IMG/VR virus record: IMGVR_UViG_3300028883_000003
Span: 1 to 64,000 of that record
Strand: one strand, 5' to 3'
Source: a virus
Length of the DNA: 64,000 nt
This document shows, piece after piece, positions 142 through 32,058 of this stretch (positions within the stretch are counted from its first letter, which is position 1; each line of letters opens with the position of its first letter). A program made the translations under genes and the position numbers. Under the pieces are notes generated by a model, which was not told the origin of the DNA, searched no databases, and worked only from the letters and a program-made list of their open reading frames with translations.

Positions 142-342
142 TCATATCATCCTCTGTAATCTCCTATTGGTATTCCCCGGACTTATCTGATGTAACATTG
201 TTGAAATAAAAACAACTAGTAAAGGGTTACTAATCTTGTGTAATTGTCTTAATCCCCATATCATTACTGATACTTCTTTACCATATATTTTTACACCAAC
301 GTGGTTTTTACGAACAAAGGAACGAAATATATGATATTTCAT
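142..342 (-). CDS. NxxF micro-protein family member
   Basis: 66 aa; core SNPLLVVFISTML; start overlaps the ruvB-like stop. Confidence 0.55.
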   Translation of the reverse strand: MKYHIFRSFVRKNHVGVKIYGKEVSVMIWGLRQLHKISNPLLVVFISTMLHQISPGNTNRRLQRMI

Positions 343-1520
343 TATACTCTAATATTTCCTTTTTCTGTGGCAAAATAATGATCTACTGCTTTATCAGTTA
401 ATCTTCTTCCTCTGCTGCCCATAAATATCATATCTTGGTACAACAATGCAGGTTCATATAAAGTTTCCCAAACAGCTTTAGGTATTCCTAAAGAGGATGC
501 AATAGTTGTACTTCCAGCCCCTCCATTTTTCATAGCCTTCATTCGTTCTAGTATATGTTTCATTCCTTTTATATGTGTGTAATCTAGTCCAAACTCATCT
601 ACTCCCAATAATTTCATAATCGTTTCTATAGACTCTTTAGAAATTTCTGAGTTAATTGTTGCTCCATCTATTACATACTTTTTAGCTATTCTAGGAGTTC
701 CATGTGAAATTTTGGCAATTAAATCTAGTCCATTTTCAGTAATAGACAATTTCTGGTTAGCCACATACATTTTTATAATCTGCTTTATTTGGTCATTATT
801 ATATGGTTCCAATTTAATATTTAATCTAAACCTATCTCTGAACGGTTTTCTTAAGTCCCCTAATTGTGTAGTAGCTCCGGCAATAGTTACTTTCGGTAAA
901 TCTACTTTTTGATCTACCCCATTATATCTTACCATAATGTAACTATCTTGCATTAAAGAGTACATGGCTTCTTCAATTTCATCTTTTAGACCGTGGCACT
1001 CTTCTAAAAAAACAACATCGTCGTCTTGTAATTGACAAATCGGTTCAAAGAATATTGAAATTGGTTCTTTGCAGGACAAGCATTTTGTACTGCTAAAAGG
1101 GTTATGATATTCACATACAGGGCATTCCTTTTTAAAGAGCACACCAAATAAGTCCTTGGTGTTCTTAAGGTTAGCAGGAATTAGTTCAAAAAATCTTCCA
1201 CCCATTTCATGTGCTGTAGCTTTAATTAGGGTTGATTTTCCAAGTCCACCATTCCCCCATAAAACAACATGTGGAAGCGGCACATTATTTTCTTTGGACT
1301 TTTTAATGTGCCCTTTCAAATATTCAACACTTTTTTCTTGCCCTATGTAGTTTTTTAACGTTAAATATGTTTCAGTTAACTTAGGCTTCATATAATCCGG
1401 CTCATTATTAACTACTTCAACTTCACTAATAACCGCCGGTGCTTCTTTTGCTTCTGGTTTAAGAAGCACTATTAGCATAAAAATTAAAAATAAGATAAGA
1501 GGGATTATAATTAGTTCCAT
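342..1520 (-). CDS. ruvB: RuvB-like Holliday junction AAA+ motor with N-terminal hydrophobic helix and inserted zinc ribbon
   Basis: YIGQ motif, Walker A GNGGLGKS, Walker B variant VFLEECH, AGATT, arginine finger FRDRF, GTPRIA, C-terminal winged helix (YEPALL..GSRGRRLT); insert CPVC..N...C..C. Confidence 0.85.
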   Translation of the reverse strand: MELIIIPLILFLIFMLIVLLKPEAKEAPAVISEVEVVNNEPDYMKPKLTETYLTLKNYIGQEKSVEYLKGHIKKSKENNVPLPHVVLWGNGGLGKSTLIKATAHEMGGRFFELIPANLKNTKDLFGVLFKKECPVCEYHNPFSSTKCLSCKEPISIFFEPICQLQDDDVVFLEECHGLKDEIEEAMYSLMQDSYIMVRYNGVDQKVDLPKVTIAGATTQLGDLRKPFRDRFRLNIKLEPYNNDQIKQIIKMYVANQKLSITENGLDLIAKISHGTPRIAKKYVIDGATINSEISKESIETIMKLLGVDEFGLDYTHIKGMKHILERMKAMKNGGAGSTTIASSLGIPKAVWETLYEPALLYQDMIFMGSRGRRLTDKAVDHYFATEKGNIRV

Positions 1521-1521
1521 A

Positions 1522-1878
1522 TTATAACGTAGTCTTTTTGGTCCAAAGGTCTATAAATTCTTGTGGTATTGAATAGTTGCACTCTAACAAATTAAATTCT
1601 GTAGAGTTTATTTTGCCAACAAGCCTGTCAAATAGTTTTAGCCACTCTTCCCTTCTCATTAGTAATTCTGCATTAGGATGTTTTACACATGTTTCATTTC
1701 GTAGTGGGACAAATGATTCAGGGTAAAAGGTAAACAGTTTTTTGTGTGTTAGGTTTTTATATCGCAGTGTTTCCTCTTCTCGGTATAAAACAAACACTTT
1801 TGCATAATTGGGTTTATTTCCTGCGGTAAACAAATCCCCATCCTGCATTTCTTTGCCATCTAGATACAAATATTTCAT
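1522..1878 (-). CDS. hypothetical protein
   Basis: 118 aa ORF tiling the leftward operon. Confidence 0.6.
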   Translation of the reverse strand: MKYLYLDGKEMQDGDLFTAGNKPNYAKVFVLYREEETLRYKNLTHKKLFTFYPESFVPLRNETCVKHPNAELLMRREEWLKLFDRLVGKINSTEFNLLECNYSIPQEFIDLWTKKTTL

Positions 1879-2147
1879 TTTTTACTCCAGTAATTTATTA
1901 GGTTACCATATGCCATATTATACCAGTTTTTTTGGCAAGTTAGTAAACCACATAATACAAAAAATACAAATGTGCTATTCACATTTTTTATGTCTTTTAC
2001 ATAGAAGGCGGCAGTTCTAGGCTTTGTGGGATGAGTTGCCTCAATGTATGGTTTGTTTTGAAGATGGCGACGACATAATCTTATTTTCATTTTTTTACTG
2101 CATTTTTCATTTTGTTTGTTAGCTGGTTGAATACTATTCCGTTCCAT
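1875..2147 (-). CDS. NxxF micro-protein family member
   Basis: core IKNVNSTFVFFVLCGL; near-identical to its neighbour; true start may lie downstream of the ORF-track start. Confidence 0.6.
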   Translation of the reverse strand: MERNSIQPANKQNEKCSKKMKIRLCRRHLQNKPYIEATHPTKPRTAAFYVKDIKNVNSTFVFFVLCGLLTCQKNWYNMAYGNLINYWSKK

Positions 2148-2341
2148 AAATTTGTATTAAAACACAAGCCGCACAGCAAAAAAAGAACAAATGTGCTATT
2201 AACATTTTTTATATGCCTTACATAAATACCAATTACAAAATTGTCGGAGTGCATCGCTATATAATCATAGAAGGTGTCGCGGTTAGCCAAATTGTTATTT
2301 TTTAGGGTTATTTTTATTTGCTTCTGCATATAACTTTTCAT
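2087..2341 (-). CDS. NxxF micro-protein family member
   Basis: core IKNVNSTFVLFLLCGL. Confidence 0.6.
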   Translation of the reverse strand: MKSYMQKQIKITLKNNNLANRDTFYDYIAMHSDNFVIGIYVRHIKNVNSTFVLFLLCGLCFNTNLWNGIVFNQLTNKMKNAVKK

Positions 2342-2537
2342 AAAGGTGGTTCAATAGTTTATATGTTTTACGTTTATCATCATGTTTGAGCCTTAAAAGA
2401 ATAGTAAATACTACAAACAGGGGATTATTTGCAGCAAACGCATACTTTACCCATATTCCTTGTCTTTTTAGGTATTTACCAGAACTAAGATAAATACATG
2501 TATGGCCATTATCTTTTGTTTGTGTTGTTATTATCAT
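2295..2537 (-). CDS. NxxF micro-protein family member
   Basis: core ANNPLFVVFTILL. Confidence 0.6.
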   Translation of the reverse strand: MIITTQTKDNGHTCIYLSSGKYLKRQGIWVKYAFAANNPLFVVFTILLRLKHDDKRKTYKLLNHLYEKLYAEANKNNPKK

Positions 2538-2538
2538 T

Positions 2539-3720
2539 TTACCAATACATAGTTTCTGATTCGGTTATGTCTTTCATCACAACAGACTTGCCCCTTTTTA
2601 TTTCTCGGTGATTAGGTGTTAATACCCAAAGAACAGAACCCCATCTGTCATATGTTAAATTATCACCTTCAGAATTATAACCGTCTGTCAGTATAATTAA
2701 GGCATCCGGCTTTTCTTCCATAGCCTTATCCATCACCGGTTGAAAACTAGTACCACCGTTATGCCGTTTGAATACTAGGTTATTCAACCCTTTGTACTCA
2801 AACATATCTTCAATAGTGCAGGTGAATTTAATAAACACAATTTCAGCAATTTTAGTTTTGTACATACTATCAACTTCTGAAATCATTTTTTTCCATTCTT
2901 TATCACTAACGGAACCTGATTCATCAACTGCTACCATAATTCTTAAGGTCTGTACCTTTTTTCTGCCTTGGTAATCTTCTCCAAATCTACGGTTTGGTCT
3001 TTTCCAAGTCTGCTCTCTCTTAACTTTGCTAGAGAATGAAACAAACTGTCTAAAAATAACATTCCACGGTATTTCAGAAGGGGACAATAAGAATCTTAAT
3101 AGCTTGCTAAACCCACTTCCGGTCGGAGAAAAGTTCTTATTAGATTCATCATAAGCATGTTGAACCATCTGTTTAACTTGCTGTTGCAGTTGACCATCCC
3201 CAACACTAGAAGTCATAAGGTCGTGGTTATCACAGCCATCTCTGCCATCTTGACCATCTTGTCCATTTTCATTATCTTTTTCTTCTTCATCGGGCAACAT
3301 GTTGTAGTATTGAAATGTAGCCAAATCTTCTTTAAACTGGTAATCTTTTGGCTTTTTAAACTGTGGCGGCAAGTTCTTTTGGTTCAAACCAGTATTAATA
3401 GCAAGGTCTTTAGCCGTTTCCATTTTTTGATTTTTATCATCAAAAACAGGATTGTTTAGATGGCCAAAAATTAAATGGTTTACAACATGTTTTATTGCCT
3501 CAACTACTTGGTCAGTTTCTAAAGAATCAACCCATTCTTGGCAATAAAGGAGGGATATAATCCCATCCTTTTCTTTTACAGAAATAGTTTTTACACTTTT
3601 ATCCATTTCCACACACATTTGTCCTACCATATGTGCGTAAAATGGGTCATTATGTAATAGCTTTTTTCTAGCCTCAAAAAAGTTATCTGAATAGTCGTTT
3701 AGAAAATCATATTTTTTCAT
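2539..3720 (-). CDS. VWA-domain protein with N-terminal metallopeptidase-like (DUF2201-type) domain
   Basis: MIDAS DESGS, GGTSF, LTDG; HVVNH..FGH where HExxH is expected; coupled to the MoxR gene. Confidence 0.8.
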   Translation of the reverse strand: MKKYDFLNDYSDNFFEARKKLLHNDPFYAHMVGQMCVEMDKSVKTISVKEKDGIISLLYCQEWVDSLETDQVVEAIKHVVNHLIFGHLNNPVFDDKNQKMETAKDLAINTGLNQKNLPPQFKKPKDYQFKEDLATFQYYNMLPDEEEKDNENGQDGQDGRDGCDNHDLMTSSVGDGQLQQQVKQMVQHAYDESNKNFSPTGSGFSKLLRFLLSPSEIPWNVIFRQFVSFSSKVKREQTWKRPNRRFGEDYQGRKKVQTLRIMVAVDESGSVSDKEWKKMISEVDSMYKTKIAEIVFIKFTCTIEDMFEYKGLNNLVFKRHNGGTSFQPVMDKAMEEKPDALIILTDGYNSEGDNLTYDRWGSVLWVLTPNHREIKRGKSVVMKDITESETMYW

Positions 3721-4946
3721 TATTTAACCTTTGTTTTTACACCATCTTCTAACTGGGCTTTAAGATTTTCAAGTTCTTTAACTGCTTCTAAAGATTCTTC
3801 TTTAGAAAACCCCATAGCCTCAATCATTTCAAGTGTCTGTTCATTTTTACTTTCAGGCATATAGGTTAGAATAACAGGAACGAAGTTCTTTTCAAGCAAA
3901 ACGCCCTTTTCAATAAACTTAATTCTCAAGTCTGCCGGTAACAACTGTAGGAAGTTGCTAATGTTTTCAGCTTGGAATTCAGTAGGTTCTTTCTTTTCTA
4001 TTTCCCCAAGAATATCAGTAAGTGTAACTTCGATTAATTCAAATCTATTTTTATCTTTGGACAAATATTTTTTGACCTTTTCCTCTACAAACTTGTCAAA
4101 GTTGCGGTTATTCATAACTTCTTTGGCAGTCAAAGGCCGAACTAAAGTTTCTTTCAGGTGCTGGTAACAAAGCATACCAACTTCTTCACCCAAAATACCA
4201 CTTATGGCTTCTAGACCAAACTGGTTAAATTGATCCTCATCAATAAACTTAAGAAGGTCATCAAGAAATTCATAAGAACGGGGAGTAGGCTCAACAATAA
4301 TTTGAAACTTCTCTTTCTTGCTAAGGGCATTTCCTGTAGCCTTTACAAACTTCCAAATTTCTTCATTTTTTAAATTCTTTTGTAGCCACTGCACGCTTAC
4401 TTCTTTCTTTACGTCAATCTTAACTTGAATAAAGCGATCCAACATGGCAGTGTCAATAGACTGAACTACATAATCTGCCGTATCAGGATTACCAGCACAC
4501 ACAATTGACCATCCTTCAGGTAATTCATGGGTATGCAATTTTCTGCGTCTAATCCCATTTTTATCTTTGTAACCAAGGACCAATTGGAACATGGCTTGAA
4601 TTACGTCATTGGTTCCTGCTCTGTTAAATTCATCCAAGAAGAGAATTCCATTAGTTCCTTCCAAGGGCCACCATTCCGGTTTCCCATATACGGTACGAAA
4701 TTCCTTTTCACCATTTGGAAGAGTAACTTCTTTCACTCTCGGAATACCAATCAAGTCACCAACTTCTTGGGTTCCCAACCGTAAGTCAATCAAGCCAAAA
4801 TTCTTATCACCGATCTTTTCAGCAATGTATCTAGCAGACTGAACAACTCCATCAGATTTACCAACACCTTTTGACCCCCAAAAGAAGGGAACCAGTTTGG
4901 ACTGATAACATGAAAATACGAATTCGGGCATCTGAACCAAGTGCAT
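3720..4946 (-). CDS. MoxR-like AAA+ ATPase
   Basis: Walker A GSKGVGKS, DLIGIP, Walker B LFLDEFNRA, AGNP, AMLDRF, PTPRSYE. Confidence 0.88.
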   Translation of the reverse strand: MHLVQMPEFVFSCYQSKLVPFFWGSKGVGKSDGVVQSARYIAEKIGDKNFGLIDLRLGTQEVGDLIGIPRVKEVTLPNGEKEFRTVYGKPEWWPLEGTNGILFLDEFNRAGTNDVIQAMFQLVLGYKDKNGIRRRKLHTHELPEGWSIVCAGNPDTADYVVQSIDTAMLDRFIQVKIDVKKEVSVQWLQKNLKNEEIWKFVKATGNALSKKEKFQIIVEPTPRSYEFLDDLLKFIDEDQFNQFGLEAISGILGEEVGMLCYQHLKETLVRPLTAKEVMNNRNFDKFVEEKVKKYLSKDKNRFELIEVTLTDILGEIEKKEPTEFQAENISNFLQLLPADLRIKFIEKGVLLEKNFVPVILTYMPESKNEQTLEMIEAMGFSKEESLEAVKELENLKAQLEDGVKTKVK

Positions 4947-6860: not shown

Positions 6861-7292
6861 TTAATGTTTATCCGGGTTTACAATTTCCCTGCTAACTTCT
6901 TCTAGGGTATTTTTAAAAGCAATTTCATTAGGTGGATTTCTATATATAGCTTCCACCCAAATCATACTACCCAAGTTACCTTTTGGTATTTTACCGGTAG
7001 CTTTTACATAATTGGTGTTGTTTTGTTGCAGCCCTAAATTTATTAGTTCTGTCGATATTTTTTGTAAAAACTTCATTGATTCTTCATTTCTAGGAGAAAC
7101 TTGGGTTATAAAAACCTTAGCATAATCCAGACTGTTTCCATTTTTACGCAATTCTTCTCGTACTAATCTTATAGTTTCTTTAAGGCTAATTCCTACATAT
7201 CTTAATGCTATAAAATAAAAGATAGGATAATGTTCGTCATACTCATCGTATGGGACTAATTCTTTGGCTTTTTGTATTTTATCAAAGTGCAC
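6861..7292 (-). CDS. hypothetical protein
   Basis: 143 aa ORF tiling the operon. Confidence 0.6.
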   Translation of the reverse strand: MHFDKIQKAKELVPYDEYDEHYPIFYFIALRYVGISLKETIRLVREELRKNGNSLDYAKVFITQVSPRNEESMKFLQKISTELINLGLQQNNTNYVKATGKIPKGNLGSMIWVEAIYRNPPNEIAFKNTLEEVSREIVNPDKH

Positions 7293-7495
7293 TTGTTTAG
7301 TTCCTTTATAAACTTTATAAATATTTTAAATTTACGCCAAGCAGCGTCGTTAGGGGTATAATTAAACTTATGATACAGTGTCATTATTAAAAGCACAAAA
7401 TATTTATTTTTTATGCTATACAACCATCTCCATCTATTAAAACCAGTTCTTCTTAATCCTTCTCGTATGCACTTATAATCAGCATCATATCTCAT
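7256..7495 (-). CDS. NxxF micro-protein family member
   Basis: core IKNKYFVLLIMTLYHKFNY. Confidence 0.6.
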   Translation of the reverse strand: MRYDADYKCIREGLRRTGFNRWRWLYSIKNKYFVLLIMTLYHKFNYTPNDAAWRKFKIFIKFIKELNKCTLIKYKKPKN

Positions 7496-7763
7496 ATTTT
7501 GGTAACCCCATAACGCAGTTTATAAATTTACCCCAGTTTCTGGTATTTTTGGCGTAATTAAACTTATGAAATAACAACGCTAGTAAAAGAGTAACAAAAG
7601 AATTTTTTGCACCCAATATTTTGACTTTAGGTGGAAAATATAATTGGTGTGCACACAACGGGTGTATTGAAATCTCTGAACGATAATTTATCCGCTCTAT
7701 TATTCTTATTCCATAAGGTATAATTTCTAATGTTACGTATTTATTTAATTGTATATTACTCAT
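7485..7763 (-). CDS. NxxF micro-protein family member
   Basis: core KILGAKNSFVTLLLALLFHKFNYA. Confidence 0.65.
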   Translation of the reverse strand: MSNIQLNKYVTLEIIPYGIRIIERINYRSEISIHPLCAHQLYFPPKVKILGAKNSFVTLLLALLFHKFNYAKNTRNWGKFINCVMGLPKYEI

Positions 7764-8047
7764 GTTAAAATCTTTTCAAGTTTAAGAGACAGTTTAGTGC
7801 TTGGTAAATACCTAACACATTCTATAAATCTGCCCCAGTTTTCAAGGGGGGCATAATTAAACTTATGAAATAATGACACCAGTAAAAGAGTAACAAAAGA
7901 ATTTTTTGCACCAAGTATTTTTGCTTCAATTGGTAAATATCTGGAACCAATCTCCCCAATTATTGAACACTGTCCCATTTTGTCTGCAACTCTTATTGCA
8001 TGACCCACAATTTTTACGGTTTTATTTGATTGCACACTTGACATCAT
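7760..8047 (-). CDS. NxxF micro-protein family member
   Basis: core KILGAKNSFVTLLLVSLFHKFNYA. Confidence 0.65.
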   Translation of the reverse strand: MMSSVQSNKTVKIVGHAIRVADKMGQCSIIGEIGSRYLPIEAKILGAKNSFVTLLLVSLFHKFNYAPLENWGRFIECVRYLPSTKLSLKLEKILT

Positions 8048-9038: not shown

Positions 9039-9242
9039 TCATTTAACCCACTCAGGTTTGCAAAGTAAACATGCTCTTACATCAATTCCACTATTATAAA
9101 ACATAACTAAAAATAGTAAAAACACATTATTTTTTATGTTCATACATTCCAAATTTGAATGCCATACCTTGTTTCCATTTTTAATTATATCTATAGTTAG
9201 ATCTTTTTTGCCGTCATTTAAATACACTTTTATATTATTCAT
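9039..9242 (-). CDS. NxxF micro-protein family member
   Basis: core IKNNVFLLFLVMFY. Confidence 0.6.
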   Translation of the reverse strand: MNNIKVYLNDGKKDLTIDIIKNGNKVWHSNLECMNIKNNVFLLFLVMFYNSGIDVRACLLCKPEWVK

Positions 9243-9243
9243 A

Positions 9244-9456
9244 TTATCTTTTTACGCTATACATTAAATTACAAAGAAAACAATAATTGGTTATACCACA
9301 ATTACTATACAATATTACCAGAAACAACAAAAATAGGTTGTTTTTTATGTCAATTCTTTTTAAACCGCCATGGCTACCACTATTTGCTACATGAACCGTT
9401 AAACCACCAAATTTTGATACTTTTATTTTACTCACGATATAAAGATTCCCGAACAT
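9244..9456 (-). CDS. NxxF micro-protein family member
   Basis: core IKNNLFLLFLVILY. Confidence 0.6.
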   Translation of the reverse strand: MFGNLYIVSKIKVSKFGGLTVHVANSGSHGGLKRIDIKNNLFLLFLVILYSNCGITNYCFLCNLMYSVKR

Positions 9457-9658
9457 TTAATATGTTGTACAAGTGAAAAAGTATTAAAGAATGTTTAGTG
9501 TTTGCAAGTATAAAACAAAAAAGCACAAATAGGGTATTTTTACTTTTTTCACACAACTCTGTTGTAATAATCCTAATTGGTCCTAAATCAGTTCTTGCTA
9601 ATATTCTATTTTTGTATCCTGCTGTTATCCTAATCCGGTCAGTCTTTTTTTGTACCAT
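9428..9658 (-). CDS. NxxF micro-protein family member
   Basis: core SKNTLFVLFCFIL. Confidence 0.55.
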   Translation of the reverse strand: MVQKKTDRIRITAGYKNRILARTDLGPIRIITTELCEKSKNTLFVLFCFILANTKHSLILFHLYNILNVRESLYRE

Positions 9659-10518: not shown

Positions 10519-10764
10519 CTATTTCCTTTCCGTTTCTTTTCTATTTAACCAGCCTATAGGGCTAAGATTTACTTTTTTTCCACTAACAAACCCACTGAGC
10601 ACCAGTAAAAACACTATAAAAACACTTGGCAAACGTTTAAACAATGTAGCTACAATAGTACCAGCACTGTCATTCCAAAGTATAAGGTCAGCAGCAAGGA
10701 GCAAGTTTCTAGCCTTACTAAAACGCAGCATTGCAAGGTTAGATCTTTTTATAATTTTAGTCAC
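10519..10764 (-). CDS. NxxF micro-protein family member (divergent)
   Basis: core LPSVFIVFLLVL. Confidence 0.5.
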   Translation of the reverse strand: MTKIIKRSNLAMLRFSKARNLLLAADLILWNDSAGTIVATLFKRLPSVFIVFLLVLSGFVSGKKVNLSPIGWLNRKETERK

Positions 10765-10939
10765 GTATATGTCCTTTAAACAAAACCCATATAGTTAATT
10801 TTCTATTGTAGTTTTTTAGTGCCATTAAAAATACTAACACCAGTGGGTTACTCTCAAGAATAAGCTTAGTAGGAACACATATCCCATATGGTTTAATCTG
10901 ATACCATTTGTCATCTATTCTTTCAAATTCTATCTTCAT
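10757..10939 (-). CDS. NxxF micro-protein family member
   Basis: core SNPLVLVFLMAL. Confidence 0.55.
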   Translation of the reverse strand: MKIEFERIDDKWYQIKPYGICVPTKLILESNPLVLVFLMALKNYNRKLTIWVLFKGHIRD

Positions 10940-11124
10940 CTTACATCAAATATAATAGAAAAATTTATTTTTGGGTTTCTTTCTTTTAAACAAATAATAA
11001 AATAAACTAATATAGCATTGTTTAAAAATTTACTTGGCATAAATGTAGTATACGTGTTTGACGATCTATGAAACGTTACCCCCATATCTCGTCCGTTATC
11101 TACTGTATGTATGCTGTTAATCAT
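10936..11124 (-). CDS. NxxF micro-protein family member
   Basis: core LNNAILVYFIICL. Confidence 0.5.
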   Translation of the reverse strand: MINSIHTVDNGRDMGVTFHRSSNTYTTFMPSKFLNNAILVYFIICLKERNPKINFSIIFDVR

Positions 11125-11130: not shown

Positions 11131-11216
11131 TGGCCCTAGTAGGACTTGAACCTACACGATCATTTACGATCACAAGATTTTAAGTCTCGTGTGTCTACCA
11201 ATTCCACCATAGGGCC
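11131..11216 (-). tRNA. trnL: tRNA-Leu(UAA)
   Basis: acceptor GGCCCTA/TAGGGCC, anticodon loop CTTAAAA, long variable arm, T-loop TTCAAGT; no encoded CCA. Confidence 0.95.
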
Positions 11217-11416
11217 TATTTATGTAGTTTTTGATATATTGTCGGGTAAAGTCTGTACTTTATAGCAAAACAAAAAAATAGGAAAATTCCGCTACACTTT
11301 TTTATCATCAATTCATCCAAATAATACCACTTAAAACCATTTATATAAACATCACAGATACTTACGTGCCCCTTTCTTGGGATTTGTTTTTCAAACTTTA
11401 TTTTTGGTTTATTCAT
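11216..11416 (-). CDS. NxxF micro-protein family member (divergent)
   Basis: core CSGIFLFFCFAI; stop overlaps tRNA-Leu +1. Confidence 0.5.
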   Translation of the reverse strand: MNKPKIKFEKQIPRKGHVSICDVYINGFKWYYLDELMIKKCSGIFLFFCFAIKYRLYPTIYQKLHK

Positions 11417-11918: not shown

Positions 11919-12439
11919 TTTATAAACTCCTCTATGGTTTGTTCTATCTGTTCTTCAATTTCAATCTTCTTAATAACTTTTAATCTAGCTCTGTGTATTT
12001 TTGTTTTAACAGTATTAATTGGTATATCTAATTTTTCAGCAATTTCTTGATATTCATAACCAAGATAGTACATGTTTAATATTCTTTTCCTCAAGTTATC
12101 CAGCTTTTGCACAGCCTTTTTAACTTTCCTCGCCCTATCATATTCTTTCTCTTGAATAGGGATATTTTCAAATAGTTCTGTGTAATAAACTATTGGGTTT
12201 TTTGTTTCTTTTTTATAGTCGTTTAGAGACATATTTCTCAAGATAGTTAAAAGCCATCCGGTGAAGTAATCCCCACTTGGCATTTGTTTATACAAGTGAA
12301 GTTTTTGCTTAGCTCTTATATATAAATTATGCACAATATCCTTGGCTTCTTTAATATCGTTTTGCACATACCTATTTGCATATGAGGCCAACATTGGGTA
12401 ACACTGCATAAATCTTTTGTCAAATTCTCGTACCGTCAT
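11906..12439 (-). CDS. ECF-type sigma-70 factor
   Basis: region 2 AKDIVHNLY..FTGWLLTILRN; region 4 HTH YQEIAEKLDIPINTVKTKIHRAR. Confidence 0.88.
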   Translation of the reverse strand: MTVREFDKRFMQCYPMLASYANRYVQNDIKEAKDIVHNLYIRAKQKLHLYKQMPSGDYFTGWLLTILRNMSLNDYKKETKNPIVYYTELFENIPIQEKEYDRARKVKKAVQKLDNLRKRILNMYYLGYEYQEIAEKLDIPINTVKTKIHRARLKVIKKIEIEEQIEQTIEEFIKCTC

Positions 12440-12638
12440 TCTTAGTGGCCTCCTCTATATAGTCGTTGTATGATGCCGTTAGTATGTTTTTCTTCGTAAA
12501 AGTATGATAACTAAGTACTAGTAAAAATAAAGTAAATACGGAGTTAGGATAAAATCTTTTAACAAAGCCCTTACCGATCATTCCAGTTCTCCCCACCCAA
12601 AGATCGTAATGCCCCCTGCGTATTTTAAAGTTCTTCAT
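12420..12638 (-). CDS. NxxF micro-protein family member
   Basis: core YPNSVFTLFLLVL. Confidence 0.6.
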   Translation of the reverse strand: MKNFKIRRGHYDLWVGRTGMIGKGFVKRFYPNSVFTLFLLVLSYHTFTKKNILTASYNDYIEEATKNDGTRI

Positions 12639-12925
12639 CTAGTCAATTCCGCAACAATGCACAATTCTGCCAATTCTAGAGTTATTGCGGTTTCTTCCTC
12701 ATCCACTATTTCTTTGGCTGCTTTTATAAATCCAATTATTGCTGTTTGGCTCCAAATGTTTGGGTTACACAGCACCCAATAAAATGTCATAATGTTTAAT
12801 TTTTTGAGTTTGGCATAATTATCTAGAGTCAATTCAAATTCTTTACCAACTGCCCGTTCAACAAGCTCTAGCCAATACTCAGGCCATCTTGCTTCTCTTA
12901 ATTCTTCAATTGTGAACTTTAGCAT
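12635..12925 (-). CDS. hypothetical protein (paralog of 14544 and 19546)
   Basis: KFTIEEL...ELTLDNY pattern shared with the two other ORFs. Confidence 0.55.
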   Translation of the reverse strand: MLKFTIEELREARWPEYWLELVERAVGKEFELTLDNYAKLKKLNIMTFYWVLCNPNIWSQTAIIGFIKAAKEIVDEEETAITLELAELCIVAELTR

Positions 12926-13172
12926 TTTTAAACCTATTATTTATGTGAACTTTAGCATTGTTAAACCTATTATTTACGTGAAACAAAATATCTTTTCTTG
13001 GATCACGCCCAATATATCTAAACCAAATTATCATAAAAAGAATAAATACAGGGTTTTTAAATGTCTTTGGCACAAAAGTATAGTTTACCCTTTTGTTACC
13101 TTGCATTGTGCAAGTATAATAGACATTTCTAAATGTCATGTCTTTTATGCGTCTTATTTCTGTAATTTTCAT
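12906..13172 (-). CDS. NxxF micro-protein family member
   Basis: core FKNPVFILFMIIW..IGR..RKDIL. Confidence 0.62.
   Translation of the reverse strand: MKITEIRRIKDMTFRNVYYTCTMQGNKRVNYTFVPKTFKNPVFILFMIIWFRYIGRDPRKDILFHVNNRFNNAKVHINNRFKNAKVHN
12911..12976. repeat. 33-bp tandem direct repeat, 2 copies
   Basis: TGTGAACTTTAGCATT(T/G)TTAAACCTATTATTTA twice, 1 mismatch. Confidence 0.9.
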
Positions 13173-13202: not shown

Positions 13203-13433
13203 CTATTTATTATAATCATTTTTACTCAGCTGTTCGTTTACAAAAAGTAATATGTCTTTTCTTTTATTACGACCAATAAAATCCCACCACACTAAGAAAA
13301 ATAAAGAAAATACTGGATTTTTAACTATTTCTAACACAAGTGTGGCATTAAACTTATCTGTTTTAACAGAATAAGCAGGACCGTAGATAGAGTTAAATTT
13401 TGCGTAAATTTTTTCTATACCTTCAATTTTCAT
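13203..13433 (-). CDS. NxxF micro-protein family member
   Basis: core VKNPVFSLFFLVW..IGR..RKDIL. Confidence 0.62.
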   Translation of the reverse strand: MKIEGIEKIYAKFNSIYGPAYSVKTDKFNATLVLEIVKNPVFSLFFLVWWDFIGRNKRKDILLFVNEQLSKNDYNK

Positions 13434-14340: not shown

Positions 14341-14547
14341 TCATTTAAATCTTCTTAGACTATTTAGTGTTAACAAAATTGTTACGGGAATTTTTAAATT
14401 AAGGCAGAGTAAAAACATAATGAAATTACTGCTTTTACATAGAGATTTTTTAATATAAAACGGACTGGCGAAGGTATTTAGATCGTGGGTAATCCAGAAG
14501 ATAAAGTAATTCTGTTTTTGCTCCATATATTCTATTTTAATTTTCAC
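14341..14547 (-). CDS. NxxF micro-protein family member (divergent)
   Basis: core KSSNFIMFLLCL. Confidence 0.5.
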   Translation of the reverse strand: MKIKIEYMEQKQNYFIFWITHDLNTFASPFYIKKSLCKSSNFIMFLLCLNLKIPVTILLTLNSLRRFK

Positions 14548-14913: not shown

Positions 14914-15177
14914 TTAATCCATTGCTACTAATTTTAGTCCTTTAGAATTATCCCTCTCATAATTATCAACCAAAGCAGAATTTTTAGGAACCTTAATTTT
15001 TTTGACAACAATAACCGATTTTGGCATACCACAATTTGGGCATTTTAAGGTTGGATCGGTTTCCCAACGTGCAAAACTACAAGTAAAGGTGTGGTGCACT
15101 ACCGGCTTTGTAGATGTTACTCTTTTGTTTCCACAATGACTGCAAGAAATATAACAGTTTGTATTAATTGTTGGCAT
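14914..15177 (-). CDS. zinc-ribbon protein
   Basis: CSHCG and CPNCG motifs. Confidence 0.6.
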   Translation of the reverse strand: MPTINTNCYISCSHCGNKRVTSTKPVVHHTFTCSFARWETDPTLKCPNCGMPKSVIVVKKIKVPKNSALVDNYERDNSKGLKLVAMD

Positions 15178-15376
15178 TTTTTCTCCTGTTTATCTTTACT
15201 AAAAGTTCACTATCTAACAAAAAACAAAAGTATGTAAATAATGAATTTTTAAAAAACTCGTCTACTAAATAAAGACACTCCGTGTTATTACTATTATTAT
15301 CTGTAACAACTATAGCGTAGTTACTTCCCCATTTACTAGCACTACGTTTAAATCTTAACGGTGGTTTTAGTTTCAT
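15164..15376 (-). CDS. NxxF micro-protein family member
   Basis: core FKNSLFTYFCFLL. Confidence 0.6.
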   Translation of the reverse strand: MKLKPPLRFKRSASKWGSNYAIVVTDNNSNNTECLYLVDEFFKNSLFTYFCFLLDSELLVKINRRKNANN

Positions 15377-16043: not shown

Positions 16044-16116
16044 TACCCCATCTAGGACTCGAACCTAGGACAGACGGATTAAAGGTCCGCTACTCTACCA
16101 ACTGAGTTAATGGGGC
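16044..16116 (-). tRNA. trnK: tRNA-Lys(UUU) with C33
   Basis: acceptor GCCCCAT/ATGGGGT, anticodon arm GCGGA-CCTTTAA-TCCGT, T-arm CTAGG-TTCGAGT-CCTAG. Confidence 0.9.
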
Positions 16117-16331
16117 TTGCTTTCATAGCTTGGTATATATCCAATACCTTTATAACAAATGGCAAAAAACAAAACAAATACGCTATTATTAATTTCTTGA
16201 CGACTAAAAGGAACACCTAAAACCCATAGAGGATATTTTTGCATATTTTTAAGTTGAACATTTATTTTTTTCATATCATTGAATTTTAGGTAATCATTCT
16301 CAAATTGTGCAAATCGTTCTTTTGTAGTCAT
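16107..16331 (-). CDS. NxxF micro-protein family member
   Basis: core INNSVFVLFFAIC; last 10 nt overlap tRNA-Lys. Confidence 0.6.
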   Translation of the reverse strand: MTTKERFAQFENDYLKFNDMKKINVQLKNMQKYPLWVLGVPFSRQEINNSVFVLFFAICYKGIGYIPSYESKPH

Positions 16332-27373: not shown

Positions 27374-27914
27374 ATGTATGATAATATGTATTATCAAACC
27401 CACAATAGCAAACAAAACCAATAAGACCGGTATTGTCCGGTATGGGGCGTATGTTATTAAGACAAAACAAGTTAGGTTTACCAAAGGGTATAAGCGTTAG
27501 GGCTTGTAAACCCCCTGCAATTTTTTTATTCAAAAAATCCCCCAAAATAAAAAAACTTTTCTCACTTTTTGCCCGGAAGCGGGAACCTTTGTCACTTTTT
27601 TGGGGTTCTGGTGATGAATGAAAGGAAAAAGGTGTGGAAAAGTCAAAAAACGTACGTAAAAACATAGTAATACACGTAAATAATACCAAAAAAGAGATAC
27701 TTTATGTATATCTACGCCACTGTACACATGAAGATGACCTTAAGGACCATACAGAAAATATGCTAGAAATGTATGAATCTACTATAACAAATAATAAACC
27801 ATTAACCTTTATATCTGAAGGTAATTATGCTATAATACCTCTATCTTCAATATATTGCACCAACACCGTATTTATTATGTTTTAGCTATTAATTTTATTA
27901 AGGAAAGTAAATAA

Positions 27915-28145
27915 ATGATACAAAATATAGAACTACATATTGATTGTAAAACCAATAAATTTGTCCAAATAAAGAAAGCAGGGGGTTTTGATCTTAAACA
28001 GTGTTTAATAGCACGCGGGTATTATTATAGTCAAAATTTTAGGCAGCTTATGAGGGCTGCTGTTGTTGATTTATTTGAGTACAACAATACCTTATTTACG
28101 TTATTTTGGCTGTTGCTGGAGCTAAAGAAACGAGAGGATTTTTAA
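27915..28145 (+). CDS. NxxF micro-protein family member
   Basis: core YNNTLFTLFWLLL. Confidence 0.62.
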   Translation: MIQNIELHIDCKTNKFVQIKKAGGFDLKQCLIARGYYYSQNFRQLMRAAVVDLFEYNNTLFTLFWLLLELKKREDF

Positions 28146-28146: not shown

Positions 28147-28425
28147 GTGACTAAAATATTAGTTAAAAAAATAAATGATTACCCTATTTATATAACTGAT
28201 TATTGGGGTGGTCTAAATTTAACGGCAATGATTAAGAGAAAGTCTGGTTTCCACATCGAACGAATAGTTCCATTAAAAAAACCTTTATTTAGTTTATTCC
28301 TACTGTTATTAAAAATAAGGTTTACACAAAAGCTAGTACCTATAGGGAAGGCACAAAATATTATAGAAAAACAAAATTATTATTCATCTGGCAAATTTTT
28401 TAATGAGGTAGAACATGAAATTTAA
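28147..28425 (+). CDS. NxxF micro-protein family member
   Basis: core KKPLFSLFLLLL. Confidence 0.55.
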   Translation: MTKILVKKINDYPIYITDYWGGLNLTAMIKRKSGFHIERIVPLKKPLFSLFLLLLKIRFTQKLVPIGKAQNIIEKQNYYSSGKFFNEVEHEI

Positions 28426-28540
28426 TTCAGTACCATTACAAATAAAAAATACAAAATTTAATACTCTATTTGTAATTTGTGTGAACATTCTAAATATCCA
28501 ACAGCTTTTGATGGTTATATGACAAAGTTTCTGATTAAAT

Positions 28541-28810
28541 ATGGGGGTAGCAATGGAATTTTATGAAGCCAAACTACAAACAAGAATAAATAAACATATA
28601 TTAACCGCAGAAATACGCGACGGTAAACTTTCTACCCTAGAGTATATAAAGTGTTATAATACCGGCTCAATTGCTGCTTTTACAGATGAAACACCTTCAT
28701 TATTTGTTGTATTTTTGGTTTTACTTGAATACAGCATAAAAAAACATAAAAAGTGTAATAATGACTTCTTTGCTTATCTCATGGACAAAATGTGTGATCA
28801 GAAAGGATAA
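28541..28810 (+). CDS. NxxF micro-protein family member
   Basis: core ETPSLFVVFLVLL. Confidence 0.6.
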   Translation: MGVAMEFYEAKLQTRINKHILTAEIRDGKLSTLEYIKCYNTGSIAAFTDETPSLFVVFLVLLEYSIKKHKKCNNDFFAYLMDKMCDQKG

Positions 28811-28813
28811 TTA

Positions 28814-29089
28814 ATGCAATTAAATACAAGAGTAAATAAACATATATTGCACCTAAATAAACCGTACAACGGCGAACCTTACCAATTGGAGTATATAAGT
28901 GCTTTTTCTCTTCGTGGTGGTTCTTGCCCTTTAACAAAAGAGACATCTTCTACATTCTGTTTATTTGTTTGTTTTTTAGAAGCGTTTTTGTACAAACAAA
29001 TTAAAAATAATAATGATGAATATTACGAAAATATGACTGAATTTTTGTATGAATTAGACAGTAGGTTACATGATGATTACGAAGATTAA
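28814..29089 (+). CDS. NxxF micro-protein family member
   Basis: core ETSSTFCLFVCFL; N-terminus homologous to 28541. Confidence 0.6.
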   Translation: MQLNTRVNKHILHLNKPYNGEPYQLEYISAFSLRGGSCPLTKETSSTFCLFVCFLEAFLYKQIKNNNDEYYENMTEFLYELDSRLHDDYED

Positions 29090-29130
29090 AAATAAATGTA
29101 TAAAATAAAAATAAAACAAAAGAAGAAAAA

Positions 29131-29343
29131 ATGATTATTGTTAAGACTGTAAACTACAATAAAGATATAGTGCTAATAGAAATAAACAAGAAAAACCACT
29201 TTCATTCGTGGATACCTGTTAGGTTGCTTAACCAATATAGTACTTTATTTTGTTTTTTCTTGAGTATACTAAAGGTAAAGATGATTGACCATCCTATAGA
29301 ATATATATATTTTTATGATAATTACACAAAGGAGAAAAAATGA
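29131..29343 (+). CDS. NxxF micro-protein family member
   Basis: core QYSTLFCFFLSIL. Confidence 0.55.
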   Translation: MIIVKTVNYNKDIVLIEINKKNHFHSWIPVRLLNQYSTLFCFFLSILKVKMIDHPIEYIYFYDNYTKEKK

Positions 29344-29650: not shown

Positions 29651-29866
29651 ATGATAGATGGTATGAAAATTAAAAGAAATAGCTGGTGGGTTTTTTTGAC
29701 AAAGGGGCAGTATAATTTTTATTCGAGTAACGTAAAAGCGGAATTAAGTTATAAAGCTATAAAAAAATTAAAAAACTCGTACCTAATTTTGTTTTTTCTT
29801 TTATTGCAAACTAGAGTAGGTCTTCGAGGACCACTAGTTACACCAATGAAATTTGGGATATTTTAA
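29651..29866 (+). CDS. NxxF micro-protein family member
   Basis: core LKNSYLILFFLLLQ. Confidence 0.6.
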   Translation: MIDGMKIKRNSWWVFLTKGQYNFYSSNVKAELSYKAIKKLKNSYLILFFLLLQTRVGLRGPLVTPMKFGIF

Positions 29867-30070
29867 ATGCGTGTAAAATTAATGGGTAGTTTTTTGGTAC
29901 TATTGCCAAACGGTACAGACGAACTATGTGCACTAATTGGGGAAATTAGCCAAGCACAGGTAAAGAGAATAACTAATTCTATGTTTATACTTTTTTTCTT
30001 GTGCTTACAAAGAAACCACAAATGTCAAGTACCCACTATAAGGGAACTTAAATATGTTGGAAGAATATAA
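29867..30070 (+). CDS. NxxF micro-protein family member
   Basis: core ITNSMFILFFLCLQ. Confidence 0.6.
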   Translation: MRVKLMGSFLVLLPNGTDELCALIGEISQAQVKRITNSMFILFFLCLQRNHKCQVPTIRELKYVGRI

Positions 30071-30088
30071 CAAAAAGGATGTGTTTTC

Positions 30089-30709
30089 ATGAGAATATCG
30101 CAGACGTTCAAAAACATTACAGATCAAATCAAAAATGAAGATTTCAAAAAAGCAGTCATTTTACTAATGAATGAATCACCAGAATATATTCTAATTACCC
30201 CTTCGTCTAGTTCTGGTAAATACCACCCCAAAGATGAAATTAACGAAAATGGTATGATTCTTCATATAAATAGGTGTGCTGTTATAGCCGATGAAATAGT
30301 CAGAATGTATGATTGGGGTGACAGAGAAAGGGATATTTTGTTAGCTTCTTGTGTTTTACATGATATTTTCAAACAAGGGCCGGAAACTGACAAAATTAAT
30401 AAAAACGGTATTAAGTTGCCTAAAATCAGGCATACTACTCCTTATCATCCTACTTATATATTTAAACGTATTGCGACTATAGCTGAAGGGTGGCCTGAAG
30501 ATGAGGTTAAACAACAGTTGTATGATTTGGCCCATTGTTGCTTGTTTCATGAGGGGCGGTGGACAATTGATGTATCGAGGGAAATAGCAAAAATAGACAA
30601 AATAAATGACAAAACACGGGAACTTTGTAAGGCTATGCATGTTGTAGATTATGTGGCTTCGAGGAGAAGCATTGCGGATGCTTTTCAGTATAAGGAGAAA
30701 ACGTGCTGA
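30089..30709 (+). CDS. HD-superfamily phosphohydrolase
   Basis: SSSGKYH..G...H, LHDIFK, FHEGRW, terminal ADY-type motif (VVDYVAS). Confidence 0.8.
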   Translation: MRISQTFKNITDQIKNEDFKKAVILLMNESPEYILITPSSSSGKYHPKDEINENGMILHINRCAVIADEIVRMYDWGDRERDILLASCVLHDIFKQGPETDKINKNGIKLPKIRHTTPYHPTYIFKRIATIAEGWPEDEVKQQLYDLAHCCLFHEGRWTIDVSREIAKIDKINDKTRELCKAMHVVDYVASRRSIADAFQYKEKTC

Positions 30710-31263
30710 AGGTAAAAAATGCGAGTAAACAATTTTGTGTATTAAAATATATAAAGAGTGGTGATGACAATTTTAAAAAATTTCAAAAGATTTATAACAC
30801 CTATATTTTTTGTTTAAACAAATTTTCTAAAGGAACTTAAATGTTAGACCTAACTAAAGAAGAGCGTACTTTATTATCAGCCATGGAAAATACGGAAACT
30901 TTTGTTTCTAGGCAGGCTGAAGATTTTTCACTAATCAAAAATGGATTTTATGTGTGCAAATTAGATACTAATATATGCAAACATTTGATAGAATTACATT
31001 GTTTAGTGGAAGTTGGGATAAATGACCAGTCAGATGATACTATTTGGTTGTATAAGGCAGACCCTGTTATATTTGCCCCTAATTTTGAAATAGGGGAAGA
31101 TAATGTTTAATACATATACAGCTAAATATTCGTCCAGTAATAAACTGACAACAACTGCTACTATAAATGGCAGTATGATAGTTGTATTTAATATTACTGG
31201 GCTATTTTAGAGACAGTAAACGAGAAACACTAGACGAAATTTTTAATACAAAAAAGGAAAAAA

Positions 31264-31476
31264 ATGAAGATAATAGATAAGGGTTATAGAATAGAACTTC
31301 TAAATATGTGGGTTTATAGCATATCCAAAAAATATGCAGCTTATTTGGAGTCTTCTTATCTACTATTATTGGCTTGTTTAGTAGACAATGTTGTCCTGAA
31401 ATACAGCAACACAAGCAAGAGAGAGTTATTTGTCATGTTGGTAGAAGAAAGTTTTAAAAAGAAAGGTGTTTTATGA
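31264..31476 (+). CDS. NxxF micro-protein family member (divergent)
   Basis: core LESSYLLLLACL. Confidence 0.45.
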   Translation: MKIIDKGYRIELLNMWVYSISKKYAAYLESSYLLLLACLVDNVVLKYSNTSKRELFVMLVEESFKKKGVL

Positions 31477-31812
31477 AATTTGGAATTATGTTAGGAAAGT
31501 CAAACTTTGAGTTTTCGGTCATCACAACAGTCATAGTATTGTTTTGTGTAGCCGTTTTGGTTAGTACAACAATATGTATTACAGACGAATTAAAAAATAG
31601 GCCAAGTGAAGAGAACTTATCCTATTACAAATTCAAGTCTAACCAGTATCAGGGTATTTTGCATAACTTAGTCAGCCAACTCAAAGAAAGTAAACCAGAG
31701 GTCTACAATAACTTTGCGGTGGCTTTAAATGAAATTAATAAAGCCGCATTAAAAGTAGGAGAGCCAATTGATGGCGATCAGGGTGCATTAATTCAATACG
31801 AGGTAGATACAA

Positions 31813-32058
31813 TTGGTACGAAATAATTTAGGCGATTACAATAGTTATGTCATACAGAACTTTATAAGAACTACTCTTTGTGCTAAGTATGCCAAAAAGA
31901 TAACCAAAAGAGGAAAACTATTGGATGTGTATTTTGGTGATGTTCCTTTAGTTTTGCCAAATTTAAATAATTCATTATTTGTACTAATGTTAATAGCATT
32001 AGGCTATGGTAGTTTTCCGGAAATAACTAAATATCTAGCCAAGAAAGCTGTAGAGTGA
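31813..32058 (+). CDS. NxxF micro-protein family member
   Basis: core LNNSLFVLMLIAL. Confidence 0.6.
   Translation: MVRNNLGDYNSYVIQNFIRTTLCAKYAKKITKRGKLLDVYFGDVPLVLPNLNNSLFVLMLIALGYGSFPEITKYLAKKAVE

What the first reader, a model, noticed from the sequence alone, without database searches (positions are those of the whole stretch)
142..32058. About 30 paralogous micro-proteins with a constant hydrophobic core and variable N-termini
Seen: 29 ORFs of 60-95 aa on both early arms share N-[S/P/T/N]-x-F-x-[L/V]-F-[hydrophobic]3-4, usually after a Lys, in their C-terminal half. Examples are KNSFVTLLL, KNNVFLLFL, KNPVFILFM, NNSVFVLFF, NNTLFTLFW and TNSMFILFF; a few matches are weak. The preceding 30-50 aa, which look beta-strand-rich, are mostly unrelated between members. 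Fragments also occur at ~28418 (KFNTLFVIC) and at the end of 27634 (TNTVFIMF). The hydrophobic run is only ~10-13 aa, short for a transmembrane helix. Inference: a modular constant-docking-helix plus variable-recognition-domain library. It could be substrate adaptors for a shared phage effector (the MoxR/VWA machine is a candidate) or a diversified anti-defence/host-takeover arsenal. I do not recognise this family.
Basis: partly seen in the sequence, partly recalled or inferred. Interest (0 to 1): 0.88.

Follow-up and report, generated by a model that had tools for sequence, protein, structure and literature searches.

The report
Expanded orphan small-protein family in phage
An uncultured 118-kb marine-sediment phage gives about one gene in six to some 34 fast-diverging copies of a small basic protein whose only constant part is a short, capped, all-hydrophobic helix; the family is real and undescribed, but its function is unknown.

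Summary
The window has 28 clear members, one weak member, one member cut by the record start and two decayed copies. Five more lie across the record junction, giving about 34 per genome: roughly 18% of ORFs and 6.5% of the DNA.

A profile built from one arm recovers the other arm above shuffled decoys. Conservation follows codon position, so selection acts on the protein.

The hydrophobic run has a median of 11 residues. It scores far from the genuine membrane proteins of the same phage, so it is not a normal membrane helix.

No member matches Pfam, PHROGs, NCBIfam, PADLOC, PDB sequences or 1.84 billion protein representatives. The family occurs in three related phages (terminase 66-87% identical).

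A 60% relative has none. At the same gene slots it carries about 18 copies of a different small family that ends in its own hydrophobic helix. This relative still keeps the AAA/VWA genes.

Neighbouring copies are related over their whole length. This is duplication and divergence, not domain shuffling.

Most likely these are early accessory host-interaction proteins, with the helix as folding or self-association core. A shared docking helix is not excluded.

The scan has reported analogous, unrelated families in other phages. A sequence look-up found no copy of this one.

The parts
2..145 (-). N-terminal 48 aa of a 73-aa member that continues over the record junction (ends at record 117974); motif NMPSLLLLFVILLS
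142..342 (-). member, 66 aa; helix 193-228 (SNPLLVVFISTML)
1875..2147 (-). member, 90 aa (71 aa from the start at 2090 used in public gene calls); helix 1944-1979; tandem pair with 2087
2087..2341 (-). member, 84 aa; helix 2165-2200
2295..2537 (-). member, 80 aa; helix 2391-2426
7256..7495 (-). member, 79 aa; helix 7373-7408; related to 7485 and 7760 from the helix onward
7485..7763 (-). member, 92 aa; helix 7569-7604; 48% identical to 7760 over the full length
7760..8047 (-). member, 95 aa; helix 7868-7903
9039..9242 (-). member, 67 aa; helix 9096-9131; one of three members absent at this slot in the closest relative
9244..9456 (-). member, 70 aa; helix 9307-9342; tandem pair with 9039
9428..9658 (-). 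member, 76 aa; helix 9503-9538
10519..10764 (-). member, 81 aa; helix 10594-10629 (LPSVFIVFLLVLS; longest run, 16 aa)
10757..10939 (-). member, 60 aa; helix 10814-10849
10936..11124 (-). member, 62 aa; helix 10987-11022
11216..11416 (-). member, 66 aa; helix 11258-11293; abuts tRNA-Leu(taa) at 11131-11216
12420..12638 (-). member, 72 aa; helix 12510-12545
12906..13172 (-). member, 88 aa; helix 13020-13055; AF2 puts a helix on the motif (block pLDDT about 85)
13203..13433 (-). member, 76 aa; helix 13284-13319; tandem pair with 12906
14341..14547 (-). member, 68 aa; helix 14398-14433
15164..15376 (-). member, 70 aa; helix 15212-15247
16107..16331 (-). member, 74 aa; helix 16152-16187; AF2: beta hairpin at residues 35-42, then the motif helix at 50-63
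27634..27885 (+). decayed member: TAG stop inside the helix (NTVFIMF*LLILL)
27915..28145 (+). member, 76 aa; helix 28086-28121
28147..28425 (+). member, 92 aa; helix 28279-28314
28415..28522 (+). truncated 35-aa copy (KNTKFNTLFVICVNIL)
28541..28810 (+). member, 89 aa; helix 28694-28729; tandem pair with 28814
28814..29089 (+). member, 91 aa; helix 28946-28981
29131..29343 (+). member, 70 aa; helix 29239-29274
29651..29866 (+). member, 71 aa; helix 29774-29809; tandem pair with 29867
29867..30070 (+). member, 67 aa; helix 29975-30010
31264..31476 (+). weak member, 70 aa (SSYLLLLACLV); counted because the syntenic gene in relative L037 (4468-4686) carries NSLFLLY and a similar C-terminus
31813..32058 (+). 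member, 81 aa; helix 31969-32004; syntenic with a member in relative G002 (4966-5235)

Best explanation
The ORFs are real protein-coding genes of one lineage-specific family of about 34 copies, 55-95 aa each and mostly basic. The family grew by repeated local gene duplication, followed by very fast divergence and occasional decay.

The only part that resists change is a helix that starts with a capping box (N, then S, P or T) and runs for about 11 purely hydrophobic residues: F at +3, L at +5, F at +6 and L at +10. A beta strand comes just before it.

I read this helix as the buried folding or self-association core of a small alpha/beta protein. I do not read it as a membrane span, and it is not a DNA signal. 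The changeable surfaces around it would carry the function.

From their position I infer that the proteins are accessory factors, probably made early, that act on host components (host takeover or counter-defence).

Shown: the family, selection at the protein level, duplication and divergence, turnover between relatives, and a helix too short for a membrane span.
Inferred: the core role of the helix, early expression, and action on the host.
For: Family and chance control.

Period-3 conservation and mixed Ser codons.

Gene-like packing on the arm strands. The ORFs are also present as called genes in public protein sets.

Six adjacent pairs are related over their full length (26-45% N-terminal, 42-83% helix, 17-58% C-terminal).

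Decayed copies.

Turnover between relatives:
- The closest relative (ligase 70% identical) lacks the three members between the ligase and the next gene. Its two upstream members show no similarity beyond the motif, while flanking genes align at about 70% nucleotide identity.
- The family is present in relatives with terminase 73% and 66% identical. The G000-only profile ranks their syntenic small genes at the top, p about 1e-5 each.

Not a membrane span:
- Run median 11 residues; Kyte-Doolittle 19-window median 1.48, against 2.0-3.0 for clear membrane proteins of the same genome.
- Summed Hessa scale median +6.0, none below 0, against -4.6 to +0.1 for those membrane proteins.

AlphaFold2 with the paralogue alignment places a helix on the motif in both models (10-residue block pLDDT about 82-88), after a beta hairpin or strand.

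Net charge median +7 against +3 for other small ORFs on the arm strands.
Against: A helix that is hydrophobic on all faces is hard to bury in a 60-70 aa monomer. AlphaFold2 could not fold the rest of the protein (mean pLDDT 63-67).

Sister lineages carry other arrays of small proteins at the same slots, each with its own constant helix. That recurrence could mean the helix is a working interface rather than only a core.

Early expression is inferred from gene layout alone. Sigma-70-like sites are not enriched, and no shared intergenic motif was found.

No partner, no phenotype and no homologue of known function exists.
Confidence: 0.5

Rival explanations
1. Docking-helix library. The constant helix is a shared interface that plugs every copy into one hub: a phage machine, a host chaperone or protease, or other family members. 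The variable parts choose targets.
For: The helix is far more conserved than the rest of the protein.

In four related lineages, small-protein arrays at or near the same anchor genes each keep a lineage-specific constant helix:
- G001: hhKhLLxILAxR at the C-terminus.
- L058: SKxEALLxxL at the C-terminus.
- L044/L045: TKEExLLxxY/F/L at the C-terminus.
In L058 and L044/L045 the N-terminal parts look heterogeneous by eye.

A motif that changes in step across all copies of a genome would fit co-evolution with one partner.
Against: Neighbouring copies are homologous over their full length, so there is no module shuffling in this genome.

G001 keeps the AAA/VWA genes but lacks this family, so that particular hub is unlikely.

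No sequence link could be shown between the lineage-specific families. They may be independent expansions in permissive slots.

No binding was tested.
Confidence: 0.17
2. Membrane-associated small proteins. The short hydrophobic helix, sometimes followed by a second short hydrophobic stretch, sits in one leaflet or forms a re-entrant hairpin. It holds the variable part at the inner membrane, for example for exclusion or membrane perturbation.
For: The run consists only of L, F, I, V and C and is flanked by basic residues.

Several members have a second hydrophobic stretch 4-6 residues later (9244, 9428, 10757, 14341).

Two members come near insertion values on the Hessa sum (116688: +0.75; 14341: +1.5).
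Against: Run median is 11 residues. No member has a favourable 19-residue window. The same genome encodes clear membrane proteins with runs of 15-24 residues and sums of -4.6 to +0.1.

Both flanks are basic, which gives no orientation signal. No signal peptide is present.

These are simple scales, not a trained predictor.
Confidence: 0.15
3. Not a protein family. The motif would be a repeated DNA signal (promoter, terminator or recombination site), or a composition artefact of T-rich ORFs in an AT-rich genome.
For: The genome is 33% G+C. TTT and TTA codons dominate the motif.

Off-strand ORFs also score weakly positive in a codon model, so that test discriminates poorly.
Against: Conservation has period 3, peaks at codon position 2 and is low at position 3. 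Ser is encoded by two unconnected codon sets.

The motif sits in the gene frame on the gene strand in every case.

Composition-matched shuffles do not reproduce it.

The motif lies at very different distances (17-50 codons) from the stop of its own ORF. That does not fit a signal placed for the downstream gene.
Confidence: 0.03

Closest known systems
Tandem arrays of more than 30 similar genes in jumbo phages G and 121Q (Hua et al. 2017, PMC5646251), and the ~35-copy zinc-ribbon expansion in phage G (Iyer et al. 2021, PMC7824862)
   Same: About 30-35 copies of one small protein in a single phage genome, attributed to tandem duplication; function unknown or only guessed.
   Different: Those are genomes of well over 200 kb (my recollection for the exact sizes), and the paper calls the copies 'very similar'. 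Here the genome is 118 kb. The copies average 13-16% column identity and are spread over two divergent arms among other genes. No domain is recognisable.
SPO1 host-takeover module (cluster of 26 small early genes; PMC6873191 abstract)
   Same: Many small genes of mostly unknown function grouped in a region thought to be expressed first. One SPO1 product acts as an adaptor-like protein on a host protease, which parallels the adaptor idea.
   Different: To my knowledge the SPO1 genes are not paralogues of each other. Early expression is shown there and only inferred here. There is no sequence similarity.
Multigene families of large eukaryotic DNA viruses (for example ASFV MGF110/360/505); from my own knowledge, not checked here
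   Same: Birth-and-death evolution of terminal or peripheral gene arrays, with copy number varying between close strains and a role in host interaction.
   Different: Eukaryotic viruses, larger proteins and partly known functions. No homology.
T4 internal proteins with a shared capsid-targeting sequence; encapsulin cargo-loading peptides (own knowledge, not checked here)
   Same: A short constant peptide on otherwise different proteins, which is the logic behind the docking reading.
   Different: Those signals are terminal and direct proteins into a shell late in infection. Here the helix is internal (17-50 residues from the end), the genes lie in the presumed early arms, and no packaging link is seen.
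Other expanded small-protein families noted earlier in this scan (e1-154137, e1-291962, e1-3447369)
   Same: The same kind of phenomenon: tens of diverged copies of an uncharacterised small protein in a phage's presumed early region.
   Different: Different motifs (for example EE-x-F-Q-x-S, acidic proteins) and different phages. A sequence look-up found nothing like this family.

Membership tests
Any curated protein family (Pfam-A, PHROGs v4, NCBIfam, PADLOC) | Significant profile match shared by members | tested here: not met
   All 41 members (this phage plus relatives) were scanned singly. No family was hit by more than one member, and the best E-value was 0.002.
Proteins with a solved structure | Sequence or fold match to a PDB or BFVD entry | tested here: inconclusive
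   Profile search against PDB sequences gave 0 hits at E<=10. Foldseek against PDB and BFVD gave nothing below E=2. VIA-align gave best Z 3.0. The models are of low confidence (pLDDT 63-67).
Transmembrane or tail-anchored small phage proteins | Hydrophobic segment long enough to span a bilayer (about 18-20 residues, favourable insertion energy) | tested here: not met
   Run median is 11 residues. The Hessa sum median is +6.0 with none below 0. Clear membrane proteins of the same genome score -4.6 to +0.1 with runs of 15-24 residues. Simple scales only.
Jumbo-phage tandem multigene arrays (phage G, 121Q) | More than 30 copies produced by tandem duplication | tested here: met
   About 34 copies. 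Six adjacent pairs are each other's best match over the full length.
Jumbo-phage tandem multigene arrays (phage G, 121Q) | Copies very similar; one uninterrupted array; genome of 200 kb or more | tested here: not met
   Mean column identity is 13-16%. Members are interspersed with other genes on two arms. The genome's unique length is 118,053 bp.
Modular library (constant module joined to unrelated variable domains) | N-terminal parts unrelated even between neighbouring copies | tested here: not met
   N-terminal parts of the six adjacent pairs are 26-45% identical.
Adaptors of the phage AAA / DUF2201-VWA module | Co-occurrence with that module in related phages | tested here: not met
   G001 has homologues of 342-1520, 2539-3720 and 3720-4946 (58%, 38% and 38% identity) but no family member.
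Adaptors of the phage AAA / DUF2201-VWA module | Physical binding | not tested
Repeated DNA element | Conservation independent of codon position and frame | tested here: not met
   Period-3 information profile, and two Ser codon sets at +1.

The most novel reading that the evidence does not exclude
Across this clade of uncultured phages, arrays of small proteins each carry a lineage-specific constant helix:
- NSxFxLF-hhhL in this phage and its close relatives.
- LLxILAxR in G001.
- SKxEALLxxL-COOH and TKEExLLxxY-COOH in others.

In this reading the helix is a common plug that docks a diversified repertoire of variable domains onto one hub, or assembles them into mixed oligomers. The motif would co-evolve with that hub. 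This would be a combinatorial targeting system in phages that has not been described.
Probability: 0.15. Interest if true: 0.8.

Novelty: new member of a known kind. Interest (0 to 1): 0.45.

Why it matters
Large expansions of a single small protein have so far been reported for jumbo phages. Here a mid-sized phage spends about 18% of its ORFs on one, and related phages fill the same slots with different families.

This gives a compact natural series for studying how phages generate and renew small host-directed proteins. It includes birth, divergence, decay and replacement of copies.

If the constant helix proves to be a shared interface, the family would be a new kind of modular targeting system. 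If it is only the folding core, the family is still an unannotated set of about 34 candidate host-interaction proteins per genome, small enough to screen by expression.

Tried and rejected
- Complex prediction of a homodimer of 9244-9456 with the 41-row alignment gave no answer. This is no evidence either way.
- AlphaFold2 on two members with paralogue alignments was confident only on the motif helix and the strand before it.
- Foldseek (BFVD, PDB) and VIA-align wide found nothing above noise.
- ESM Atlas: its own models are poor (pLDDT 0.42-0.46). The feature hits are unnamed clusters, commonest in Bacteroidota, and are a lead only.
- The word-indexed search with the family alignment found only this phage's own proteins.
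- The exhaustive profile search gave 27 hits at E<=1e-3. Twenty-six are proteins of this phage or of L031. The last is a 1593-aa protein matched only on the hydrophobic stretch, judged spurious.
- The megablast phage search had no hit. The best cultured terminase is 26% identical, from Bacillus phages, so the host is unknown.
- Single-protein locus scans with DNA polymerase, RNA ligase and DUF2201 found nothing.
- The family alignments are too variable for a locus scan.
- The built-in search of the records of G001-G004 found one weak hit; local scans were needed.
- hhalign between this family and the G001 family aligned only 9 helix columns at probability 0.5%.
- A tail profile from L058, L044 and L045 does not hit G000, G001 or G002.
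- G003 (terminase 31% identical) shares no arm genes and has no members.
- Sequencing runs: no RNA holder is listed. The only holder is the probable source, a marine-sediment metagenome.
- Laying its contigs added nothing on the family. It gave one short-sided joint (8872 to 9339, side 20), which is not reliable, and pile-ups that turned out to be tRNA genes.
- Promoter and terminator scan: sigma-70-like sites are not enriched.
- No shared 8-mer was found in intergenic gaps.
- The codon-model coding test separates family ORFs from off-strand ORFs only weakly.
- Records behind Logan and NCBI loci cannot be searched whole. I walked the NCBI contig gene by gene instead.

Full report
**What the window is.** The window is the first 64 kb of a 118,180-bp IMG/VR virus record rated 100% complete.
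- Its first and last 127 bases are identical, so the assembly is circular or permuted, with 118,053 unique bases.
- G+C is about 33%.
- The only public run holding this DNA is a marine-sediment metagenome, probably the source.
- No cultured phage is close; the best terminase match is 26% identical.
- Genes run leftward from about 26 kb through position 1 and on across the junction to about 116.2 kb. They run rightward from about 26.5 to 37.3 kb.
- These two divergent arms hold a RuvB-like AAA protein, a DUF2201 metallopeptidase/VWA protein, an RNA ligase and an HD protein among many small ORFs.

**Checking the observation.**
- I count 28 clear members in the window and one weak member (31264-31476).
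- One member starts at 145(-) and continues over the junction.
- Two copies are decayed. 27634-27885 has a TAG inside the helix, and 28415-28522 is a 35-aa remnant.
- Four further members lie at 116183-117674.
- That makes about 34 copies. Against a crude count of 185 non-overlapping ORFs this is roughly 18% of ORFs. It is also about a third of the 89 ORFs on the arm strands and 6.5% of the DNA.
- In 32 aligned members, N opens the motif in 23. S, P, T or N follows in 30. F is at +3 in 28 and at +6 in 26. Lys directly precedes in only 11.

**Chance and DNA-level explanations.**
- A profile built only from minus-arm members scores seven untrained ORFs at 10 bits or more: four plus-arm members and three ORFs at 116-118 kb. 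About 0.6 is expected from twenty-fold shuffled ORFs.
- A loose regex gives 66 sites against 21-40 in codon-shuffled genomes.
- Information content per nucleotide has period 3. It peaks at codon position 2 and is low at position 3. Serine at +1 is written with both AGY and TCN codons. This is selection on the protein.
- A codon model is consistent with coding (31 of 33 positive) but discriminates weakly.
- Public gene callers had already called these ORFs.

**Nature of the constant part.**
- The uncharged run has a median of 11 residues, range 8-16.
- The best 19-residue Kyte-Doolittle window has a median of 1.48. Clear membrane proteins of the same phage score 2.0-3.0.
- The summed Hessa scale has a median of +6.0, with none below zero. 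Those membrane proteins score -4.6 to +0.1.
- So this is not a normal membrane span.
- The opening N-S/P/T looks like a helix cap.
- F+3, F+6 and L+10 fall on one face, but the other faces are hydrophobic too.
- A strand-like alternating pattern precedes the helix.
- The proteins are basic, with median net charge +7 against +3 for other small ORFs on the arm strands.
- AlphaFold2 with the paralogues as alignment places a helix on the motif in both models (10-residue blocks at pLDDT 82-88), after a hairpin or strand. It cannot fold the rest (mean pLDDT 67 and 63).

**Known families.**
- None of 41 members matches Pfam, PHROGs, NCBIfam or PADLOC in a consistent way.
- No PDB sequence matches the profile.
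- Fold searches give noise.
- The profile search of 1.84 billion representatives returns only this phage's proteins, one protein of its closest relative, and one spurious long protein.

**Evolution inside the genome.** Six adjacent pairs are each other's best matches over the full length: 1875/2087, 7485/7760 (with 7256), 9039/9244, 12906/13203, 28541/28814 and 29651/29867.
- Within pairs the N-terminal parts are 26-45% identical, the helix 42-83% and the C-terminal parts 17-58%.
- The 'variable N-termini' are therefore diverged copies, not shuffled modules.

**Relatives.** Terminase homologues define a clade.
- *Closest relative (terminase 87% identical).* It is known only from short Logan contigs. 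Its RNA-ligase contig (L031, ligase 70% identical) has two members upstream of the ligase. It lacks the three members that sit between the ligase and the next gene here. Flanking genes align at about 70% nucleotide identity. The family genes do not align at all.
- *73% relative (NCBI contig, L037).* It has at least eight members plus the counterpart of 31264, with P-P or P-S in place of N-S.
- *66% relative (G002).* It has at least nine members at the start of its contig, syntenic with the plus arm.
- In both L037 and G002 the profile trained only on this genome ranks the syntenic small genes at the top (hypergeometric p about 1e-5).
- *60% relative (G001, 99% complete).* It has homologues of the AAA, VWA, ligase and other arm genes but no member.
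- G001 instead carries about 18 copies of a different small family. These have an IxYL motif and end in hhKhLLxILAxR.
- The G001 copies sit in the same four slots: before the 143-aa gene, on both sides of the 198-aa gene, and in the other arm upstream of the counterpart of 30841-31110.
- Profile comparison shows no significant link between the two families.
- *Wider clade.* The 198-aa anchor has homologues in 45 IMG/VR loci. Neither family is found there apart from G001 itself.
- Two other lineages have arrays of small proteins with their own constant C-terminal helices. These are L058 (SKxEALLxxL) and L044/L045 (TKEExLLxxY/F/L). They are again not linked by sequence.

**Interpretation.** The best-supported reading is a birth-and-death family of small accessory proteins. 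What is conserved is what holds the protein together: a capped, buried hydrophobic helix. Because it is hydrophobic all round, it probably also mediates self-association.
- High turnover between close relatives, decay products and the position among presumed early genes fit proteins that act on host components. None of that is shown.
- The docking-library reading is weakened by full-length homology of neighbours and by G001 keeping the AAA/VWA genes without the family.
- The recurrence of lineage-specific constant helices in sister lineages keeps the docking reading alive, at about 15-17%.
- A membrane-leaflet anchor is possible, at about 15%.
- A DNA signal or artefact is essentially excluded.

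**Comparison with what is known.**
- Expansions of 30 or more copies are reported for jumbo phages G and 121Q (PMC5646251).
- A zinc-ribbon protein has about 35 copies in phage G (PMC7824862).
- The SPO1 host-takeover module is a cluster of small early genes, not of paralogues (PMC6873191).
- This scan has reported analogous families in other phages, none similar in sequence.
- The present family is a new member of that kind. It is unusual for the genome size, the extreme divergence, and the replacement by another family at the same slots.

**Verdict.** Novelty: new member of a known kind. Interest 0.45.

Noticed in passing
L022:8149-17610 and L023:6030-8500 (G001 = IMGVR_UViG_3300037067_014938); L021:17082-18117 (-): The 60%-terminase relative has about 18 copies of a different small family (64-119 aa). 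It has an N-terminal strand, an IxYL motif and a C-terminal hhKhLLxILAxR helix. The copies sit in the same four syntenic slots that the NSxFxLF family occupies here. There is no Pfam or PHROG match and no profile link to this family.
   Followed up: partly
L058:357-5334 (+); L044:3009-8299 (+); L045:1016-7325 (+): Other phages that share the 198-aa anchor gene carry arrays of 9-15 small proteins. Their N-terminal parts look heterogeneous by eye (Cys-rich or SH3-like). They end in a constant tail at the very C-terminus: [ST]-K-x-E-A-L-L-x-x-L in L058 and T-K-E-E-x-L-L-x-x-Y/F/L in L044 and L045.
   Followed up: partly
window 11131-11216 (-), 16044-16116 (-), and 32412-36714 (+): There are nine tRNA genes. 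tRNA-Leu(taa) and tRNA-Lys(ttt) lie among the family genes and read TTA and AAA, the commonest Leu and Lys codons in and around the motif. tRNA-Lys overlaps the last 10 bases of member 16107-16331.
   Followed up: no
window 1-127 and record 118054-118180: The 'direct terminal repeat' is an exact 127-bp overlap of the record ends. It fits a circular or permuted assembly rather than a long terminal repeat. One family gene spans the junction.
   Followed up: yes
window 21203-21547 (-): A 114-aa ORF carries a GGQ motif, like the peptidyl-tRNA hydrolase domain of release factors or ArfB. It lies in the minus arm.
   Followed up: no
window 41627-64000 and record 64-116 kb: Many long, presumably late genes have strong AGGAG-like sequences 6-10 bases before the start. 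Family genes have them in about half the cases. Strong Shine-Dalgarno use sits uneasily with the Bacteroidota host assumed in earlier first-stage notes on this genome. The host remains unknown.
   Followed up: no
window 8737-9042 (-), 8399-8740 (-), 8022-8402 (-): Three non-family genes downstream of the RNA ligase are conserved in order in the closest relative (L031). The three family genes between them and the ligase are missing there. This gives a clean presence/absence difference within 0.6 kb.
   Followed up: yes
P0167 (1593 aa, public protein set): This is the only significant profile hit outside the phage clade. It matches eight times, on the hydrophobic part of the profile only. It is probably a repetitive membrane protein and was not examined.
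   Followed up: no
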